Below, in pieces: positions 30,645 to 63,055 of a DNA stretch of 63,479 bases; the first letter of the stretch is position 1; every line of letters begins with the position of its first letter. The stretch spans positions 1 to 63,479 of the IMG/VR virus record IMGVR_UViG_3300020461_000006; one strand, written 5' to 3'. This stretch comes from a virus. Taxonomy: Duplodnaviria; Caudoviricetes. A program made the translations under genes and the position numbers. The notes under the pieces were generated by a model, which did no database searches, had not been told where the DNA came from, and saw only the letters and a list, made by a program, of their open reading frames with translations.

Positions 30645-30842
30645 TTAGCTGAGACCGAGTTTTCCCAGCAGTGCTTTGGTGTTCGATGCCTTTTCTTGGT
30701 GGTAACGGTTTAGATCCCTGATGCAGAACTGCAAGTCCTTATAGAACTCCTCTTCAGGGTTGGGGAAGTCAAAGTACTCCGATACAGAGTCCATCAAGGC
30801 ATCACGACGACGCTTCTTAAGCGCTTCATCCTGGTAGTTCAT
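30645..30842 (-). CDS. Hypothetical protein
   Basis: ATG coupled to terminase stop (TAATG). Confidence 0.6.
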   Translation of the reverse strand: MNYQDEALKKRRRDALMDSVSEYFDFPNPEEEFYKDLQFCIRDLNRYHQEKASNTKALLGKLGLS

Positions 30843-32254
30843 TAGATGAGATCTAACCAATCAGTTGTGGGAGTTGTAGCAACTACTGAGAGTGCAAGAG
30901 CGAGTGCCATCACCGAATCATCGTGTGCGCCATCTCCTGCCTGTCTATCACCTGTTTCCAGCTGTCTAAACATCAACATCTCCTGATAGAAGGGATCTCT
31001 AGGAACCTTCAGCTCCTCACGCTCCAGGAAGTAAGTGATGCGATCCGTATTTGAGATTTTGTTGGGTCTGTTGGTGTTGTATGGCTCGACCATGTACTTT
31101 GCCAGAGCCTTTGAGAGAATCTCAGATACGACAGCACCGACACCGTTCTTCTCGACGATCACTTTTGAGGGGCTGAAGTTCTCTGCCTGCTCAATGATCT
31201 GTTTGATGCAGTAGTCGGAGGACTTATATCTGACACGGAACATATTGACCACTTGGTACGGCGCAGTGGTGATGTCCAGGACAACGGAGCACCAGTAATC
31301 ATCACCACCTCCAGCTGGGTCGATCGCCATGATGTAGTCACGGTTGATCAGTCCTGACTCGATACAGCGACCGTGACACGCTTTCTCCACCAGTTCGGGT
31401 GGGAAGACCTGAGCGTCTGAGGCGACATAGTCCATCTCATATTCCTGCCTCCACGCTCTGTCTGTCAGTTTTGCCTTGGCTTTTGTTTTCGCAGCCCAGT
31501 CAGGATCCGACGCATAGATCGGAATACTTGAGTAATGGATCTTGAACCGATTCCAGCCGTCGTCTTCGCCGTGCCAGAGGTTGGCGAACATGTTTCCCAT
31601 CCCGTTTGGGGTGGATAACAGGATGAGCTTGGACTTCTCGCCGAGCGTTGCCATCGTCGGCTGTGCTGCGGTGTAAATCTCGTCTGCTCCATCGAGGAAA
31701 GCGGCCTCGTCGAGCACCACCACGGAAACAGAAGGGATACCACGGGCGGCTCTTGGGGTAGCAGGTAGGAAATAGATGGTTCCGAGTCCTTTGAACGACA
31801 GTTCGCTGTTGGATTCGGTGGTGAACTCAATTGATGAGTCCTCGATGCTTGCGGCCTGGGCTCGGATCCGTTTGCCCAACGCACCGGAGTCAGTAGCCGT
31901 TTTGGAGAACACCACTGCTGCGAAGCCTGGTTCAGTCAGAGCGCGACACAGCAGGTAGGAGCAGACCGTTTCAGAAGCGCCGACCTGGCGGGACTTCAAG
32001 ACGATCGTGTACTGGTGAGAACAGATCGAATTAATCAGCTTCTTCTGGATATCGAAGGGCTGAAAGGGTTTGACGCTGCCTGATGTTCTGATCCACGTCA
32101 GTGGTGCGAACTGATCCCACTTGTCTGCAGTTGGAAATTTAGGTTTGAAACCAACAGCAGTAGATGTAAGGCGCTTCTCAGCTGCCTCGCGGTCATGCTG
32201 CTCCTGTAATTTCTCTAACCTCTCCAACCGGGTTAAGTGTTTGGCGTTGGGCAT
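30842..32254 (-). CDS. terL: Terminase large subunit
   Basis: Walker A LKSRQVGAS, Walker B VVLDEAAF, LLSTPNG, nuclease AIDPA and HDDSVMALAL. Confidence 0.95.
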   Translation of the reverse strand: MPNAKHLTRLERLEKLQEQHDREAAEKRLTSTAVGFKPKFPTADKWDQFAPLTWIRTSGSVKPFQPFDIQKKLINSICSHQYTIVLKSRQVGASETVCSYLLCRALTEPGFAAVVFSKTATDSGALGKRIRAQAASIEDSSIEFTTESNSELSFKGLGTIYFLPATPRAARGIPSVSVVVLDEAAFLDGADEIYTAAQPTMATLGEKSKLILLSTPNGMGNMFANLWHGEDDGWNRFKIHYSSIPIYASDPDWAAKTKAKAKLTDRAWRQEYEMDYVASDAQVFPPELVEKACHGRCIESGLINRDYIMAIDPAGGGDDYWCSVVLDITTAPYQVVNMFRVRYKSSDYCIKQIIEQAENFSPSKVIVEKNGVGAVVSEILSKALAKYMVEPYNTNRPNKISNTDRITYFLEREELKVPRDPFYQEMLMFRQLETGDRQAGDGAHDDSVMALALALSVVATTPTTDWLDLI

Positions 32255-34108: not shown

Positions 34109-34390
34109 TCATTGGTGCTCCATGTTGAGGATTTCACTGATGGCTTGCTTGTAGCCGTCCCAATAGATGGCTTGGAACTCACGGTCCTGGCCTTTGAACT
34201 CACTCCATGCGCTTTTCTGGCGTGCTGTTGCCCAGCTCAGCAGACTCCTAATACTGTTCCTTTGCACCTCAAGATTGGAATCATCTGGTTCATGGAAAAT
34301 CTTCTTGAGATCAGTCCCTGTTGTTGAGTTGAGTTGTAACAAGTGGCGCTCAAAAGCTGCTCGGTCTTGTGCGGCTTGAATTGAAGTCAT
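34109..34390 (-). CDS. Hypothetical early protein
   Basis: 93 aa, TAATG-coupled. Confidence 0.6.
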   Translation of the reverse strand: MTSIQAAQDRAAFERHLLQLNSTTGTDLKKIFHEPDDSNLEVQRNSIRSLLSWATARQKSAWSEFKGQDREFQAIYWDGYKQAISEILNMEHQ

Positions 34391-34581
34391 TAGACGTTTT
34401 GGGATTGGTTCTCGATGAAGCGTTGAAAAGCACCACGCTTTAGGTTGAACTGGGTTCTTTTCCTGGGTTCCTTGTGGGTGATGTAGACCTTCTTGCCGTT
34501 CCGGAAGAAGTATTGAGCACCTCTCGCTCCCTTGTAGACAGGGGCATCATCAGGAACAAGGCTGGAATCAGCGTGTGTCAT
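34390..34581 (-). CDS. Hypothetical early protein
   Basis: YKGARGAQYFFRNGKKVY motif (GxRGG-like small domain). Confidence 0.6.
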   Translation of the reverse strand: MTHADSSLVPDDAPVYKGARGAQYFFRNGKKVYITHKEPRKRTQFNLKRGAFQRFIENQSQNV

Positions 34582-34584
34582 TAA

Positions 34585-34779
34585 TCAGTTAGCGATGGTG
34601 TAGTTGTTGCAGAAGTGATCCCACTCGATCTTGTGCAGACCACGCTCCTTGTGGATGCCTTTGATTACCCAGCAGGGTTGAAGCCCAGCTTTTAAGGGTC
34701 GTTCGACAGTTAGGAGGATGAACTGTTCCTTGTCGCAATCTCTGGTGACCGTGCGGCCAATCAGTTCTTTGAGTTTCAA
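34585..34779 (-). CDS. Hypothetical early protein
   Basis: TTG start preceded by a TCTCTCTCGCACC leader variant. Confidence 0.5.
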   Translation of the reverse strand: MKLKELIGRTVTRDCDKEQFILLTVERPLKAGLQPCWVIKGIHKERGLHKIEWDHFCNNYTIAN

Positions 34780-34802
34780 GGTGCGAGAGAGATAAAAGTG
34801 AT

Positions 34803-35015
34803 CAAAAAGGGGGCTGGTCTTACGGCAGCGTCCTTACTTCCGGCCAATTTGCCTTCCGGCTGGAGTCACCGGAGTCCTCGATGGGACCGCCTTTGCCTTG
34901 GAGAGGCCCGGAGATGCAGCGGTAACTGCACCTCACCAACCGCTTGATCCGAGCAGTTGCAGGCATCACTACGGAGGACGCGTCTGGGGTGTTTACGTCA
35001 CCCCGCCCGCCAGCA
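34803..35015 (-). ncRNA. Candidate ~210-nt multi-stem structured RNA
   Basis: Intergenic; nested stems GCTGG/CCAGC, GCGTCCT/AGGACGC, TGCCT/AGGCA and six hairpins; G-U pairs favour the minus strand; ends in T run. Confidence 0.65.
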
Positions 35016-35017
35016 GA

Positions 35018-36100
35018 TCAGACGAGAGCCAGCAGGGACTTGCGGGCTCGGTCGATGCGCTTCGCACTGGCACCGCCGTAAAGAGCCTCCAGACGTGTGC
35101 GGGCTTTGTCGGTGACGCTGCGGCTCATGCCACGGTTGCGACCTCGGTCATGAGTCTCGAACTGGGTGATGGCCTGGAACAGTCCCCAGGCAGTGCCCTT
35201 TTCAACGCCAAAGCCCGTGTCACCGCTGTAATGCGAGTTGATGACATCGATGTAGGAAAGATCAGTGAGCAGACGCGGACGCGTTGCCCCGCTGTTCTTA
35301 TCCGTAACAGGACGAGACAAGTCATCGGAATAGGTATGCTCCAGGACTGCTTTGGCTTGATCCGAGTTCAGGCGCAGCGTCGTTAGAGGTCGCAGGGTCT
35401 GGAGGTCGATCTCGAACTTCAGCTGTTCGACGTTGATCAGACGAGGCAACGCCTTAGCGAACGCTGTGACAGATGCGGTGTGACGCATGACCATGCCTGC
35501 ACCCTCTTGCTTGGCGCGGTTGGCACCTTTGTTGCAGAGGAAGTTGATCTGGTTGGCACACTGCAGTCGGACGTCTGAGAAGAAGACGCCGAAGGCAGAG
35601 GAGCCATCAAAGGAGTTGAAGGCGTGGAGGTAGCGACGGACCTTGTCACCTGAGGTGACTTCGCCCTCGATGTCGCAGCGAGCAGAGACGAACACCTTCT
35701 TGCCACCACGGATGGTGAGGATGTTGTCGATCTCTACGTTCTCCCGCAGGTAGTCGAACAGCAGAACCAGAGCGTCGTTCTGCACCGGGGTGTAGTTGCT
35801 GCTCATGACGCCAAGCGAGACGCCTGTGTCCTCCCTGACGAGGTGGCAGTGCTCATCGTCGACGCGAGTCTCGCCATTGTGCTGATAGGTGCTGACGACC
35901 TTGTTGACCTTGAAGTCTGCGTCAGCCAGACGGAAGGCTTCGGAGGCGGACACGTTCTCGGTGATGAGCGTTCCGCCCGCTTGTGCAACCAGGGGATTGA
36001 CCTGATAACCATTCTCCTTGTACTTGCCATAGACCATTGCCTCCTTTTCTCGGGAGTATTGGGTGCTGACGGCGTTCGCGTATTTGAACTGGGAAGTCAT
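35018..36100 (-). CDS. DUF932/DUF945-family protein
   Basis: YTPVQND, GGKKVF, NSFDGSSA, VRLQCANQ, RHT, TAWGLFQAITQFETH; start reassigned to MTSQFKY (36100), which follows the promoter and leader motif. Confidence 0.85.
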   Translation of the reverse strand: MTSQFKYANAVSTQYSREKEAMVYGKYKENGYQVNPLVAQAGGTLITENVSASEAFRLADADFKVNKVVSTYQHNGETRVDDEHCHLVREDTGVSLGVMSSNYTPVQNDALVLLFDYLRENVEIDNILTIRGGKKVFVSARCDIEGEVTSGDKVRRYLHAFNSFDGSSAFGVFFSDVRLQCANQINFLCNKGANRAKQEGAGMVMRHTASVTAFAKALPRLINVEQLKFEIDLQTLRPLTTLRLNSDQAKAVLEHTYSDDLSRPVTDKNSGATRPRLLTDLSYIDVINSHYSGDTGFGVEKGTAWGLFQAITQFETHDRGRNRGMSRSVTDKARTRLEALYGGASAKRIDRARKSLLALV

Positions 36101-36146
36101 GGGGTAGTTAGGTGAGAGAGATACGAGGACGTTGCCCGTCCTGTTG

Positions 36147-36175
36147 AGGATACGAATATCCACCTGACCTGTCTA
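36147..36175 (-). promoter_or_regulatory. Sigma70-type early promoter TAGACA-17-TATCCT
   Basis: Exact 17-bp spacing; followed by AGGACG-GGCAA-CGTCCT hairpin, leader motif and ATG; -35 lies inside a CTGACCT-N4-AGGTCAG palindrome. Confidence 0.6.
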
Positions 36176-41995: not shown

Positions 41996-42499
41996 TCAGC
42001 AATCGTAGATCAGACATTCAGGATCACTTGGATATATAGAGCAATACGAGTCCCAATAAGTCAGTTTCTTATCTGCGGGATTGTTTTTAAGCTCGTCGAG
42101 CGCCTCTTTATCTAGAGTTCCTTCACGTAGTGAATGTTCCAACGCAATCATTGCATCGTCCATTTCCGCATTCTGCCTCATCCATGTGAATAACGTATCC
42201 TCCCTAATTTCGTTCCAAATATGTTGTGGACGCCACCAAGGTAGAACTTGATAATTACTCTTAGATCCGTTGCATTCAGAGCAACATCTTACTAGGTTCC
42301 ACCTCTTATTTGGCCCGCCATGTGAGCGTGGGATGACATGATCGAGGGTCCAGGATGTTGCTTTGCGTCCACAATACGCACATCGGTCACCGGGATAATC
42401 CGCGATGATTGCTTTCCTAAACCGCTTTACCGCATTTTTTGGCCTTGTTTCGTGAAGTTGAAAGAGCAATTCGTCTGACGATTGCGCTACTCGCATCAC
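41996..42499 (-). CDS. HNH endonuclease
   Basis: CAYCG..TLDHVIPRSHGG...NLVRCCSECNGSK. Confidence 0.92.
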   Translation of the reverse strand: MMRVAQSSDELLFQLHETRPKNAVKRFRKAIIADYPGDRCAYCGRKATSWTLDHVIPRSHGGPNKRWNLVRCCSECNGSKSNYQVLPWWRPQHIWNEIREDTLFTWMRQNAEMDDAMIALEHSLREGTLDKEALDELKNNPADKKLTYWDSYCSIYPSDPECLIYDC

Positions 42500-45106: not shown

Positions 45107-45781
45107 TCAGTCCTCAGACTTGCCGAACACTTTGTCTCCAGGCTCGCCCATGCAGTAGGCCTTTAGATCGCACTGGAAGCTGTCGAAGGCTTCAGTGATC
45201 TCGTCAGCAACTGGCTCTGGAGGCAGTGCCATCAGGGTGTGAACCGTGTCGTTCTTGGTTTTGCCTTTACGGCTCCACTCGAAGTCGTAACCGCGAGGGT
45301 CTCCATAACGCGGGTTCTCAACCGCTTTGGTGAACTGCTGAATCAGAGTCTGTTGAGTGAAGCTCCAGATTTGGAACTTCTCTTCCTTGTAGTTCCAGAC
45401 GATCATCGCCATGAAGGTCTTCACTAGAGGGTCGCCATTCTTTCGAGTGGCAGCACCTTCAGGAATTTCTTCAAATGGGACTTCGTCGAAACCATTTTCT
45501 GCAAGGGCTTCTGCGTCCCAGCGAGCGCAACCACGACGGGATTGACCATCGTCGTCCTGGTAGTCGTACCAGATTTCCGAACCCCAGCGACATTGCGACA
45601 TGACGCGGAATTCGACGCTCTCGCCGTCCTTAGGGACAGCAACGTAACCGCTTGTAGCGGCTGCACGATCAGCTGCTTCCTTCTTCTCTGACTCCAGACG
45701 AGTCCGGAGTGCTGTCGGAAGAAAGCTGTTCGTTTCTTGTGAGGTTTTTGTGGTTTGGTTGCGGCGTGTAGTTACAGGCAT
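45107..45781 (-). CDS. Putative single-stranded DNA-binding protein
   Basis: FMAMIVWNYKEEKFQIW..TQ..L, GDPRGYDFEWSRKG; acidic; upstream of exonuclease. Confidence 0.6.
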   Translation of the reverse strand: MPVTTRRNQTTKTSQETNSFLPTALRTRLESEKKEAADRAAATSGYVAVPKDGESVEFRVMSQCRWGSEIWYDYQDDDGQSRRGCARWDAEALAENGFDEVPFEEIPEGAATRKNGDPLVKTFMAMIVWNYKEEKFQIWSFTQQTLIQQFTKAVENPRYGDPRGYDFEWSRKGKTKNDTVHTLMALPPEPVADEITEAFDSFQCDLKAYCMGEPGDKVFGKSED

Positions 45782-57781: not shown

Positions 57782-57786
57782 GGAGG

Positions 57787-57840
57787 TACGTTGGGCCGAA
57801 AGGCTGCAGTCCGCGCTCACCATGCAACGGGGGTGAGTTC
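57787..57840 (+). ncRNA. Probable glutamine riboswitch (Downstream-peptide / glutamine-II-like)
   Basis: CGTTG...GCAACG closing stem, GGCC-GAAA-GGCT hairpin, CTCACC/GGTGAG pseudoknot; upstream of DUF4278-like ORF. Confidence 0.65.
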
Positions 57841-62342: not shown

Positions 62343-62669
62343 ATGGCAAACACCATTCGCATAAAGCGAAGTGCAGTAGGGGGCAAAGTCCCCACCACAT
62401 CGCAGATCTCTTTGGGCGAGTTAGCAATTAACACGACTGACGGGAAGCTTTACACCCGCAAGGAGGTGAGTGGTGTTGCCTCGATTGTTGAAATTGGGGC
62501 TGGGGGTGGAGGCATCTCTGGTCCCATCCTCCAATCCAAACAAGTGATTGATTCAAATGTGAATATGACTACTGGATACAATGGGTTATCTATTGGCGAT
62601 GTGGAGATTGCCAACGGATACACCGTTGAAGTACCTGCAAACTCCACCTGGACAGTGAGTAATCTCTGA
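62343..62669 (+). CDS. Tail-fibre-associated protein
   Basis: IRIKRSAV.GKVP....GELAINTTDGKLY. Confidence 0.7.
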   Translation: MANTIRIKRSAVGGKVPTTSQISLGELAINTTDGKLYTRKEVSGVASIVEIGAGGGGISGPILQSKQVIDSNVNMTTGYNGLSIGDVEIANGYTVEVPANSTWTVSNL

Positions 62670-63055
62670 TGGCATACGGAACAGTTAAGGTCGATCAGAT
62701 CACGACCAGTACGCAAACACTTACGATCGATAACCTGGCAACACAGTCCTATGTGACTAGCCAGGGGTTCGTGACCAGCAGTGGTCTGTCGGGTACTTAT
62801 GCAAACCTCGCATCACCAGCTTTTACTGGGGATATCGAGCTGTCAGCACAGGCCCCTATCAAATTTATGGATGCCGATAGCTCGCATTACGTTGCGTTCA
62901 AGGCACCAGCAACTGTCGCTGCAAACGTGACCTGGACCCTGCCAGCGACAGACGCAGCAGGGCAGTTGACATCTGACGGTTCGGGACAGCTCAGCTGGGC
63001 TGCTGCCAGTGGAGGCGGTGGCGCATCGATAGGACTGGCCTTGGCTCTGGGTTAG
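62669..63055 (+). CDS. Tail-fibre-associated protein
   Basis: YANLASPAFTG, DSSHYVAFKAP...TWTLP, SDGSGQLSW. Confidence 0.7.
   Translation: MAYGTVKVDQITTSTQTLTIDNLATQSYVTSQGFVTSSGLSGTYANLASPAFTGDIELSAQAPIKFMDADSSHYVAFKAPATVAANVTWTLPATDAAGQLTSDGSGQLSWAAASGGGGASIGLALALG

What the first reader, a model, noticed from the sequence alone, without database searches (positions are those of the whole stretch)
34803..35015. Unassigned ~210-nt multi-branch structured RNA in the early region
Seen on the minus strand: outer stems GCTGG/CCAGC, GCGTCCT/AGGACGC and TGCCT/AGGCA, with hairpins GGGGTG/CACCCC, CAACTGCT/AGCGGTTG, GAGGTGCAG/CTGCATCTC, GCCT/AGGC, GTCC/GGAC and TCCGG/CCGGA. ACCGC at one hairpin tip can pair with the linker GCGGT (possible pseudoknot). 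Two loops display CUCCA. A T run follows. I cannot assign it to a named family. Inference: a phage ncRNA (decoy, ribozyme or regulator) co-transcribed behind the DUF932 gene.
Basis: partly seen in the sequence, partly recalled or inferred. Interest (0 to 1): 0.75.

Follow-up and report, generated by a model that had tools for sequence, protein, structure and literature searches.

The report
New structured RNA family in phages
This stretch encodes a roughly 200-base RNA with an elaborate, evolutionarily conserved fold that recurs in dozens of uncultured phage genomes, matches no catalogued RNA family, and still has no known job.

Summary
Window 34813-35014, minus strand, is a real structured RNA. 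Folding of the single sequence is not significant (z -1.29). Comparison settles it: I collected 34 distinct homologues from viral, metagenome and MAG contigs. On that alignment 85.7% of pair cells are standard pairs (65.0% in shuffles, 33-43% when partners are slid), and 41 of 55 pairs show changes on both sides. A model built only from 20 distant members finds the window copy at 69.8 bits.

Rfam 15 gives no match, even at E<=10.

The DUF932 neighbour is incidental. Elsewhere the RNA starts 2-4 nt after the stop codon of an ssb-type gene, and in 15 of 34 members a strong hairpin with a U-rich tail follows it. Close relatives keep the same flanking genes without the RNA, and each of 5 phage records holds one copy.

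Best reading, at about 45%: an autonomous RNA cassette transcribed at the 3' end of replication/recombination genes, acting as a folded RNA on an unknown partner. Rivals are antitermination, mRNA stabiliser, riboswitch, ribozyme and ssDNA element. Function is untested.

The parts
34813..35014 (-). Whole structured RNA core (202 nt), from the first base of P1 to the last
   Evidence: R1 match 34805-35014 at 246.6 bits. R2, built without any main-family sequence, matches 34813-35014 at 69.8 bits, E 4e-17, over the full model. Helix coordinates checked.
35010..35014 (-). P1 5' strand GCUGG, pairing with 34813-34817 CCAGC
   Evidence: 3 of 5 pairs change on both sides across 34 sequences; 97.1% of cells paired.
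35005..35007 (-). P2 5' strand GGC, pairing with 34824-34826 GCC. The 3' side is followed by the conserved internal loop GUAAGA (34818-34823).
   Evidence: Helix 2: 4 of 4 model pairs change on both sides, 93.2% paired. GUAAG is invariant in alignment A6, but it was required by one of the collection patterns.
34986..35004 (-). P3 hairpin GGGGUG-ACGUAAA-CACCCC
   Evidence: Compensatory changes in 3 of 6 pairs in the main family and in 5 of 5 in the whole family; 74.8% paired, with imperfect alignment.
34975..34981 (-). P4 5' strand GCGUCCU, pairing with 34828-34834 AGGACGC
   Evidence: 6 of 6 model pairs change on both sides; 97.5% paired. RNAalifold recovered it independently on the MAFFT alignment of distant members.
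34906..34964 (-). P5 domain: P5 (GCCUG/CGGGC) enclosing hairpins P5a and P5b
   Evidence: The P5 helix is the weakest aligned (65.9% paired in A7). In the main family 94.9% of its cells pair. P5b is absent or short in distant members.
34937..34959 (-). P5a hairpin CAACUGCU-CGGAUCA-AGCGGUUG, the most conserved part. Loop bases 34945-34948 (AUCA) form the pseudoknot.
   Evidence: The inner 5 pairs are invariant in 34 of 34, but they were required by the collection patterns. The outer 2 pairs change on both sides in 12 and 16 sequences.
34865..34868 (-). Pseudoknot partner UGAC in the bulge of P7, pairing with loop bases 34945-34948
   Evidence: Middle pair: C-G in 20 and U-A in 14 of 34, never unpaired. 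Two pairs are invariant. The fourth pair is G-U, G-C or A-U in 18 and non-standard in 16, mostly A opposite C. In the window itself this fourth pair is A opposite C, so 3 of 4 pseudoknot pairs are standard there.
34873..34888 (-). P6 hairpin GGUCC-CAUCGA-GGACU
   Evidence: 4 of 4 model pairs change on both sides; 83.8% paired. Recovered by RNAalifold on A6.
34840..34872 (-). P7 (CCGG/CCGG) with a 5-nt bulge, a CC/GG step and the variable hairpin P7a (GCC-GGAA-GGC)
   Evidence: P7: 3 of 5 pairs change on both sides. P7a: 3 of 3. Both recovered by RNAalifold on A6.
34803..34812 (-). C-rich spacer and U run (CCCCCUUUUU) after P1; no hairpin of its own
   Evidence: A U run is kept in the window's subgroup only. 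15 of 34 other members have a strong hairpin plus U-rich tail here instead.
35018..36163 (-). Upstream gene, DUF932 family; its stop codon TGA (35018-35020) lies 3 nt before P1
   Evidence: PF06067 at E 4.1e-23; phrog_1221. The neighbourhood is not conserved family-wide.
34585..34779 (-). Next ORF downstream (64 aa, TTG start), preceded by a CU-rich leader
   Evidence: A homologous ORF with an ATG start follows the RNA in L091. No Pfam family.

Best explanation
The window encodes one member of an uncatalogued family of phage RNAs, 191-217 nt long.

Shown:
- The family shares one fold: P1-P2 close the molecule, with a P3 hairpin and P4 at a first junction. A second junction carries P5 (with P5a and sometimes P5b), P6 and P7/P7a. 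A 4-pair pseudoknot joins the P5a loop to a bulge in P7.
- The RNA is always on the same strand as its neighbouring genes.
- It starts 2-6 nt after an upstream stop codon.
- In 15 of 34 members it is followed within about 10 nt by a strong hairpin with a U-rich tail, which looks like an intrinsic terminator.
- There is one copy per phage record.
- It is present or absent between otherwise identical neighbouring genes.

Inferred: it is made as the 3' part of an early/middle replication-recombination transcript, most often the ssb transcript, like a 3'-UTR-derived RNA. Its 3' end is set by the terminator where one exists, and by processing or read-through elsewhere, as in the window. It then acts as a self-contained folded RNA that binds a specific partner, most likely a protein of the phage or host DNA- or RNA-handling machinery. 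On this reading it does not control the gene beside it. The partner and the effect are unknown.
For: Real RNA structure:
- Main family (15 rows, 14 distinct): 94.9% of cells paired and 11 pairs with double changes; for both the share of cells paired and the covariation score, 0 of 500 shuffles reach the observed value.
- Whole family (34 sequences): 85.7% of cells paired against 65.0% shuffled. 41 of 55 pairs have double changes. 424 cells show double changes against 163 shuffled. Slid controls give 33-43%.
- RNAalifold on a plain MAFFT alignment of 20 distant members recovers P4, P5a, P6, P7 and P7a, with 18 of 23 pairs compensatory.
- Detection is reciprocal. R1, built from the window's clade, finds the distant members. 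R2, built from distant members only, finds the window.

Strand: G-U pairs, such as the invariant U-G in P5a, would be A-C mismatches on the other strand.

Included in a transcript:
- It starts 2-6 nt after a stop codon in every member checked.
- Where a terminator-like hairpin exists it always lies after the RNA, never between the stop codon and the RNA (15 of 15).

Autonomous cassette:
- L004-L006 keep DUF932 followed by the same downstream ORF without the RNA.
- At least five different upstream neighbours occur: DUF932, a small basic ORF, an OB-fold SSB, a second SSB-like family, and others.
- There is one copy in each of 5 phage records.

Not a leader of the next gene:
- The downstream genes differ.
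- The terminator hairpins are 8-10 nt from P1, or overlap it by 2 nt, with no competing pairing that I could find.

Many invariant unpaired bases and a pseudoknot argue for a precise three-dimensional shape.
Against: - No direct evidence that a discrete stable RNA exists. The only RNA-library signal is one 171-nt metatranscriptome contig of a relative. It covers 34804-34954 and runs 21 nt past the RNA's 3' end. Contigs cannot show ends or strand, and DNA carry-over is possible.
- No promoter of its own was found.
- The window copy has no terminator hairpin, so its 3' end is undefined.
- Downstream genes continue on the same strand in all six records looked at. That equally fits a cis-acting element inside an operon.
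- The recurring position right behind ssb-type genes of two unrelated families could mean a cis role for ssb expression rather than a free-standing RNA.
- No partner protein co-occurs. BLAST clustering of six records found nothing RNA-related shared by all.
- Several invariant blocks were required by my search patterns, so their conservation is partly by construction.
Confidence: 0.45

Rival explanations
1. A cis-acting transcription element, working like HK022 put, lambda nut or EAR. The nascent RNA would fold just after the upstream ORF and modify the RNA polymerase that made it. That polymerase would then read through the terminator immediately downstream and later ones in a long same-strand operon.
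For: - The layout 'stop codon, RNA, terminator-like hairpin, further same-strand genes' occurs in 15 of 34 members.
- The orientation always matches the operon.
- No promoter of its own.
- In the window it lies 2.5 kb upstream of the terminase, at the head of about 33 kb of same-strand late genes.
- From recall, not from a call: nutR and putR lie between cro and tR1 in the same layout.
Against: - 19 of 34 members have no hairpin nearby.
- Close relatives with the same genes lack the RNA.
- As I recall, the fold is about three times the size of put or EAR.
- EAR is, from recall, filed in Rfam, and no Rfam family matched the RNA.
- In group C a TATAAT-like box follows the terminator (read by eye), which suggests a fresh promoter rather than read-through. 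The promoter scan of L133 found none.
Confidence: 0.2
2. A 3'-end stabiliser or expression tuner of the upstream mRNA, chiefly ssb. A compact fold at the 3' end would protect the message from exonucleases, or set the ratio of ssb to downstream genes.
For: - It lies directly behind an OB-fold SSB gene in 13 group-C loci (the C2 cluster). PF00436 was tested on one member, L133, and phrog_44 on L147.
- It lies directly behind a second, unrelated SSB-like family in L142 (phrog_1607, E 2.6e-5; L148 is the same sequence by eye). L125's upstream protein is 57% identical to L142's, and that protein clusters with those of L134, L137 and L140 (cluster C65).
- It always lies before the terminator.
Against: - A plain terminator hairpin would do this job. 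It does not explain some 60 conserved unpaired bases and a pseudoknot.
- In the window and 13 other main-family members the upstream gene is not ssb.
Confidence: 0.1
3. A riboswitch. The fold would be an aptamer for a metabolite, for example one linked to nucleotides, controlling the terminator or the next gene.
For: - Its size and complexity resemble large aptamers, with a junction-rich fold and invariant junction bases.
- An aptamer-then-terminator order occurs in 15 of 34 members.
- dNMP kinase follows in group C.
Against: - The downstream genes are unrelated across lineages.
- I found no alternative pairing between the P1 3' strand and the terminator.
- It lies after an ORF rather than after a promoter.
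- No Rfam riboswitch model matches, including the cobalamin models that I considered from recalled motif resemblance.
Confidence: 0.08
4. A ribozyme, for example a self-cleaving RNA that cuts the operon transcript at the ORF/RNA border.
For: - A complex conserved core with a pseudoknot.
- Its position between cistrons starts a few nt after the stop codon.
- From recall: small self-cleaving ribozymes are common in phage and marine metagenome sequence.
Against: - No match to any ribozyme model in Rfam.
- The helix order is fully nested apart from one loop-bulge pseudoknot. By my recollection of those folds, that does not fit the HDV-like, twister or glmS layouts.
Confidence: 0.08
5. An element that works as folded single-stranded DNA, such as a replication origin or priming site beside the replication/recombination genes.
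For: - It neighbours SSB, exonuclease, RusA and nucleotide-metabolism genes.
- G-T pairs are tolerated in ssDNA.
- Weinberg et al. 2017 note that ssDNA and RNA motifs cannot be told apart reliably by sequence analysis, and they propose ssDNA roles for 223-349-nt plasmid motifs (PMC5737381, passages read).
Against: - It is always placed between a stop codon and the terminator (15 of 15), never after the terminator. A DNA element has no reason for this.
- It always lies on the sense strand.
- A pseudoknot plus many conserved junction bases is typical of RNA tertiary structure.
Confidence: 0.07

Closest known systems
3'-UTR-derived bacterial small RNAs (biogenesis analogue; the examples are recalled, not from a call)
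   Same: The RNA body lies between the stop codon of a parental gene and that gene's intrinsic terminator, with no promoter of its own. This layout is seen in 15 of 34 members.
   Different: At about 200 nt, with ten helices and a pseudoknot, it is not a short seed-plus-terminator RNA. The window copy has no terminator hairpin. Processing and stability are untested.
HK022 put RNA, lambda nut sites and the EAR element (cis-acting antitermination RNAs; properties recalled)
   Same: It lies inside long same-strand operons, just after an ORF and just before a terminator, and needs no promoter of its own.
   Different: As I recall, these elements are much smaller. No sequence or structure model match: EAR is, from recall, in Rfam, and no Rfam family matched. 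The RNA is dispensable between the same genes in relatives.
STAXI motif, Rfam RF01728 (Weinberg et al. 2010, PMC2864571; passages read)
   Same: A pseudoknot-containing motif of mobile elements found near ssb, antirestriction and other DNA-handling genes. Its function is unknown, and the RNA-versus-ssDNA question is open.
   Different: STAXI is a small pseudoknot unit repeated two or three times and is listed for Enterobacteriales. This RNA is a single 200-nt multi-junction fold in marine-type phages. There was no Rfam hit on the RNA.
ROOL and GOLLD RNAs (large phage- and prophage-associated ornate RNAs; PMC5737381 passages; PMC12286853 seen only as a search listing and abstract start)
   Same: Phage-borne, highly conserved complex folds with no known function and no linked protein.
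   Different: As I recall, those are about 3-4 times longer. They are often next to tRNAs. No homology was detected.
Plasmid motifs ARRPOF, GEBRO and PAGEV (PMC5737381, passages read)
   Same: Structured elements of 223-349 nt tied to replication regions of mobile DNA, and candidates for ssDNA function.
   Different: Different hosts and replicons. There was no model match on the RNA. Here the placement before terminators argues for RNA.

Membership tests
Any Rfam 15 family (4227 models) | Covariance-model score at or above the family's gathering score | tested here: not met
   Whole window at gathering thresholds: the only hit is Glutamine-II at 57786-57838. 34700-35120 at E<=10: 0 hits. Six main-family loci at E<=5 and eight distant loci at E<=1: no hit on the RNA.
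tRNA / tmRNA | Cloverleaf or tRNA-like domain detectable by ARAGORN | tested here: not met
   0 genes in the window. The Rfam tRNA model hits only L147 6460-6618, not the RNA.
STAXI (RF01728) | Tandem copies of a small pseudoknot unit; match to the Rfam model | tested here: not met
   No Rfam hit. The element is a single copy with a nested multi-junction fold. Only the gene neighbourhood (ssb) is alike (for the definition).
Cobalamin-type and other large riboswitches | Match to the aptamer model; a conserved functional class of downstream genes; an expression platform overlapping P1 | tested here: not met
   No model match. Downstream genes are heterogeneous. Terminator hairpins are separate from P1. 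Ligand binding is not testable here.
3'-UTR-derived ncRNA | Lies between the stop codon and the intrinsic terminator of the parental gene | tested here: inconclusive
   Met in 15 of 34 members (the scan tool confirms L142 but misses L133). Not met in the window: U run only, no hairpin.
3'-UTR-derived ncRNA | Accumulates as a discrete stable RNA species | not testable with these tools
   Only assembled metatranscriptome contigs were available. One 171-nt contig of a relative overlaps the RNA and runs past its 3' end.
put / nut / EAR-type antitermination RNA | Makes the transcribing polymerase resistant to downstream terminators | not testable with these tools
   Only the positional analogy could be examined.
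Self-cleaving ribozymes (hammerhead, twister, HDV-like, glmS, pistol, hatchet) | Match to the class model or core motifs; self-scission | tested here: not met
   No Rfam match. Cleavage itself is not testable here.
   4 of 11 DUF932 loci carry the RNA. The 4 RNA-bearing records searched with PF06067 have no DUF932. L004-L006 have DUF932 without the RNA.

The most novel reading that the evidence does not exclude
The RNA is a new functional RNA class of the phage replication/recombination module. Either it is an RNA cofactor or regulator that works with SSB-type proteins or the replisome, or it is a new large polymerase-modifying or catalytic RNA. It would be carried as a mobile RNA-gene cassette that phages exchange independently of protein genes.
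Probability: 0.2. Interest if true: 0.88.

Novelty: categorically new. Interest (0 to 1): 0.72.

Why it matters
Complex conserved RNA folds of about 200 nt with pseudoknots have nearly always turned out to be ribozymes, riboswitches or RNP cores. New classes are now rare. This one is confined, as far as tested, to uncultured phages:
- 0 of 44 other genomes of the family of the one MAG that holds it (R1), and 0 of 87 other genomes of that MAG's phylum (R2).
- No blastn match in 50,697 GenBank phage records, queried with 4 members.

It sits repeatedly right behind ssb-type genes of two unrelated families. That points to an unrecognised RNA player in phage DNA metabolism or in operon transcription.

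'New' here means a new RNA family with no detectable relative. Its mechanism is unknown, so it may yet prove to be a new form of a known kind of element. A compact 200-nt RNA with a defined covariation model is directly testable by probing, pull-down, termination assays and cryo-EM.

Tried and rejected
1. Single-sequence thermodynamics: z -1.29 on both strands. Uninformative.

2. blastn of the RNA against GenBank phages: no match for the window, L133, L142 or L125.

3. Exact-pattern scans that added nothing:
- The first viral scans returned only the 4 known contigs.
- The pattern GTCCTCYG...CCTCTCC...GGTCCC gave 19 new stretches, none passing the model.

4. Chance pattern hits discarded after model search:
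- 40 of 51 metagenome stretches (L048 at 10.2 bits, E 0.39, counted as chance).
- 32 of 33 genome contigs stretches.
- L143, L144, L146 and L149.

6. Resemblances recalled from memory: the 16S 3' end/h45, the cobalamin 'GGUGA...UCC' and 'GCAACUG' blocks, RNase P CR-I, and the HDV fold. None is backed by any Rfam hit, so all were dropped.

7. An alternative pairing between the terminator's 3' half and the C-rich J4/5: seen in group C only, not in L125/L137, so taken as coincidence.

8. Partner search: BLAST clustering of ORFs of six RNA-bearing records found one family in all six (window 62669-63055, no Pfam family) and dCTP deaminase in five. Nothing was RNA-related.

9. Cultured relatives: the group-C SSB is 32-37% identical to those of Synechococcus phages KBS-S-2A and S-H1. 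R2 finds no RNA in either record.

10. RNA libraries: X18 and X20 contigs lie only on the DUF932 gene. The X19 contig overlaps the RNA of a relative. Depths are 2-7, so there is no evidence on ends, strand or abundance.

11. The promoter/terminator scan missed the L133 hairpin that RNAfold gives at -17.4 kcal/mol.

12. SSB in the window: no PF00436 match and no BLAST match to two loci's SSBs. Only a distant relative of the second SSB-like family was found, at 45107-45781.

13. Supplementary files of the two Weinberg papers were not opened. They hold the motif alignments and could contain a related unnamed motif.
Full report
**What is at the site.**

The minus strand of 34803-35015 lies between the stop codon of a DUF932 gene and a 64-aa ORF.
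- The DUF932 gene is 35018-36163 (PF06067, E 4.1e-23).
- The 64-aa ORF is 34585-34779.

Folding the single sequence gives -87.3 kcal/mol. That is only 1.29 sd better than dinucleotide shuffles, and the opposite strand does equally well. Thermodynamics alone therefore says nothing.

No known class matches.
- Rfam 15 finds nothing on it at gathering thresholds or at E<=10 on a 421-nt slice.
- ARAGORN finds no tRNA or tmRNA.
- No promoter-like or terminator-like site flanks it in the window.

**Homologues.**

*Main family.* Of 11 viral contigs encoding a DUF932 relative, 4 carry a homologue of the RNA just downstream (76-99% identical). The other 7 do not within the fetched flanks. A first covariance model (R1) was built from five sequences. 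Exact-pattern scans filtered with R1 then added:
- 11 metagenome contigs out of 51 pattern hits;
- 1 contig of a MAG out of 33 pattern hits.

*Distant members.* Searching that MAG whole revealed a second, much more distant copy on another contig (49 bits).
- A pattern designed from what the two shared pulled 18 further viral contigs, all confirmed by R1 at 21.7-54.2 bits.
- A looser pattern added L142 (L148 is the same sequence by eye), L145 and L147.

*Reciprocal test.* A second model (R2) was built only from 20 distant members. It recovers all 14 main-family sequences, including the window at 34813-35014 (69.8 bits, E 4e-17, full length). It finds nothing in the 63 unrelated pattern-hit loci searched with it: 34 matches in 97 sources.

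*Limits of the collection.* The family as collected is 34 distinct sequences. This is a lower bound, because the large collections could only be reached through exact patterns. It also means the blocks required by the patterns are invariant partly by construction. Those blocks are the inner P5a stem, GGUG...CC and GUAAG.

**Structure.**

*Main family.* On the alignment of 15 rows (14 distinct), 94.9% of pair cells are standard pairs and 11 pairs change on both sides. For both the share of cells paired and the covariation score, 0 of 500 shuffles reach the observed value.

*Whole family.* On the R2 alignment (34 sequences; 55 pairs, pseudoknot included):
- 85.7% of cells pair, against 65.0% in shuffles and 33-43% when partners are slid by 1-3 columns;
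- 41 pairs and 424 cells show changes on both sides, against 35 pairs and 163 cells in shuffles;
- 0 of 500 shuffles reach any of the five measures.

That alignment is fitted to the model. As a check, RNAalifold was run on a plain MAFFT alignment of the 20 distant members. It independently predicts P4, P5a, P6, P7 and P7a, with 18 of 23 pairs compensatory.

*Weak spots.* P3 (74.8% paired) and P5 (65.9%) are poorly aligned between subfamilies.

*The fold.*
- P1 and P2 close the molecule, separated by a small internal loop with a conserved GUAAG on the 3' side.
- P2, the P3 hairpin and P4 meet at a first junction.
- P4 opens into a second junction carrying P5, P6 and P7.
- P5 carries the near-invariant hairpin P5a and, in the main family only, P5b.
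- P7 has a 5-nt bulge, a CC/GG step and the variable hairpin P7a.

Window coordinates of every helix were checked.

Instead, four bases of the P5a loop (RYCA) pair with four bases of the P7 bulge (UGRY).
- Two pairs are invariant.
- The middle pair is U-A in all 14 main-family sequences and C-G in all 20 distant ones, never unpaired.
- The fourth pair is G-U, G-C or A-U in 18 sequences and non-standard in 16, mostly A opposite C.
- In the window this fourth pair is A opposite C, so 3 of 4 pairs are standard there.

The U-A to C-G switch may be a single evolutionary event, so this is good but not overwhelming support.

*Strand.* Strand-specific G-U pairs fix the minus strand as the functional one.

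**Context.**

*The window's phage.* The window is a siphovirus-like phage genome of about 63 kb.
- One long minus-strand array runs from about 46.8 kb down to 1. It holds an exonuclease, an SSB-like protein, ThyX, RusA, an HNH endonuclease, GP88 and DUF932.
- The RNA follows, then small ORFs, TerL (30842-32254), the portal and the tail genes.
- A plus-strand block holds prim-pol/helicase, PolA, dCTP deaminase and class II RNR.

*Upstream neighbours across the family.* The RNA is always on the strand of its neighbours and starts 2-6 nt after a stop codon. The upstream neighbour changes:
- DUF932 in the window's clade.
- A small basic ORF with a conserved C-terminus in seven main-family contigs. 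Its substitutions are mostly synonymous, so it is a real gene.
- An OB-fold SSB in the 13 loci of group C and in L147. PF00436 was tested on L133 and phrog_44 on L147.
- A second, unrelated SSB-like family in L142 and in L125, L134, L137 and L140. L142 hits phrog_1607 at E 2.6e-5, which is weak. L142 and L125 are 57% identical.
- Proteins ending in ...ELPF in L145 and L129.

*Downstream side.* In 15 of 34 members a hairpin of -14 to -22 kcal/mol with a U-rich tail follows within about 10 nt of P1, and its stem covaries between lineages. The other 19 have nothing stronger than -4.7 kcal/mol there. The window's subgroup has only a U run. Wherever such a hairpin exists it comes after the RNA, never before it. 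Genes continue on the same strand beyond it in all six records examined.

*Distribution.*
- Contigs L004-L006 have DUF932 followed directly by the same downstream ORF with no RNA.
- The four RNA-bearing records searched have no DUF932.
- Each of five phage records has exactly one copy.
- No copy was found in 44 other genomes of the family of the one MAG that holds it (R1), or in 87 other genomes of its phylum (R2).
- No copy was found in the two cultured Synechococcus phages with the closest SSB.

**Reading.**

*Shown:* a real, strand-specific, complex RNA fold. It is phage-borne, single-copy, modular, and positioned to be included at the end of an upstream transcript.

*Inferred:* the best single reading (about 0.45) is an autonomous RNA cassette. 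It would be made like a 3'-UTR-derived RNA from replication/recombination transcripts, and would act as a folded RNA on a specific partner.

The presence/absence polymorphism and the variety of neighbours favour autonomy. The many invariant unpaired bases favour a specific three-dimensional function.

*Main rival (0.2):* a cis-acting antitermination element. The layout 'ORF, RNA, terminator, more genes' is the layout I recall for nutR/putR. Against it stand the 19 members without a nearby hairpin, and the relatives that do without the RNA.

*Less likely readings:*
- a plain ssb-mRNA stabiliser (0.1), which is too elaborate for that job;
- a riboswitch (0.08), given the heterogeneous downstream genes and no switching pairing;
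- a ribozyme (0.08), with no model match;
- an ssDNA element (0.07), because placement before the terminator in 15 of 15 cases has no rationale for DNA. Weinberg et al. rightly warn that RNA and ssDNA cannot be told apart reliably by sequence analysis (PMC5737381).

*Expression evidence is nearly nil.* One 171-nt metatranscriptome contig of a relative overlaps the RNA and runs on into the next gene's leader.

**Comparison with known things.**

The nearest analogues are by context, not homology:
- STAXI, a pseudoknot motif near ssb and antirestriction genes with the same RNA-or-ssDNA question (PMC2864571);
- ROOL and GOLLD, ornate phage-associated RNAs of unknown function;
- 3'-UTR-derived sRNAs, for biogenesis;
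- put, nut and EAR, for position.

None shares a model match.

Literature searches found no description of this RNA:
- 'DUF932' with 'structured RNA': 0 papers;
- two broader searches on phage structured RNAs and ssb-linked motifs.

**Verdict.**

The tie to DUF932 and the proposed pseudoknot are not.

It is a new RNA family of high structural complexity, with unknown function and a suggestive link to phage ssb/replication modules. I call it new as a family. Whether its mechanism is new cannot be said yet.

Noticed in passing
window 57786-57838 (+): Glutamine-II riboswitch aptamer above Rfam's gathering score (33.9 bits against 33). It is the only Rfam hit in the window and is consistent with a marine cyanophage-like origin.
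   Followed up: no
L027 2309-2360 (+) and L066 1305-1356 (+): Sub-threshold Glutamine-II-like matches (26.9 and 25.4 bits). They lie about 200 nt upstream of the structured RNA but on the opposite strand, at the start of an ORF that reads away from the RNA.
   Followed up: partly
window 41996-42499 (-): HNH endonuclease whose C-terminal 33 residues match the CP12 domain just under the cut-off (22.5 bits against 22.7). CP12 is, from recall, a cyanobacterial and cyanophage Calvin-cycle regulator, so this is an odd fusion.
   Followed up: no
L032 452-646, L066 1104-1286 (-), L063 40-228, L050 1938-2153 (-), and others: A small basic ORF with a strongly conserved C-terminal 30 residues ends 3 nt before the RNA in seven contigs. 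L002 and L044 have a shorter variant with the same last four residues. Substitutions are mostly synonymous. No Pfam family was found (tested on the L066 copy only).
   Followed up: partly
window 34780-34803 (-); L003, L010, L029, L002, L044, L091, L145 downstream of the RNA: CU-repeat leaders (CUCUCUCUC-like) lie directly upstream of the start codon of the gene after the RNA, with no Shine-Dalgarno sequence. They recur in two distant RNA lineages.
   Followed up: no
window 34390-34581 (-) and homologues after the RNA in L003, L029, L002, L044, L010: A 63-aa ORF with a weak match to the PBCV-specific basic adaptor domain (PF08789, 18.6 bits against 20.4). In L004-L006 it directly abuts DUF932.
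   Followed up: partly
L101, L103, L104, L111, L115-L119: Nine viral contigs match the pattern GTCCTCYG...CCTCTCC...GGTCCC with an identical 93-nt span but are not the RNA. This is probably a conserved coding segment of another phage group.
   Followed up: no
G001 contigs C15 (5698-5901) and C192 (4225-4434): One MAG, titled 'uncultured proteobacterium', carries two different subfamily versions of the RNA on two contigs. None of the other genomes searched holds a copy: 0 of 44 in its family, 0 of 87 in its phylum. The contigs are probably phage DNA binned with the MAG.
   Followed up: partly
L133 2603-2660 and other group-C loci: The hairpin after the RNA is followed at once by a conserved TATAAT, TAGAAT or TATCAT box about 25 nt before the dNMP kinase start codon. 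It could be a promoter. The simple promoter scan did not call it.
   Followed up: partly
L147 6460-6618 (+): Two adjacent tRNA genes (61.9 and 53.8 bits) lie 3.4 kb downstream of the RNA in a 62-kb phage record.
   Followed up: no
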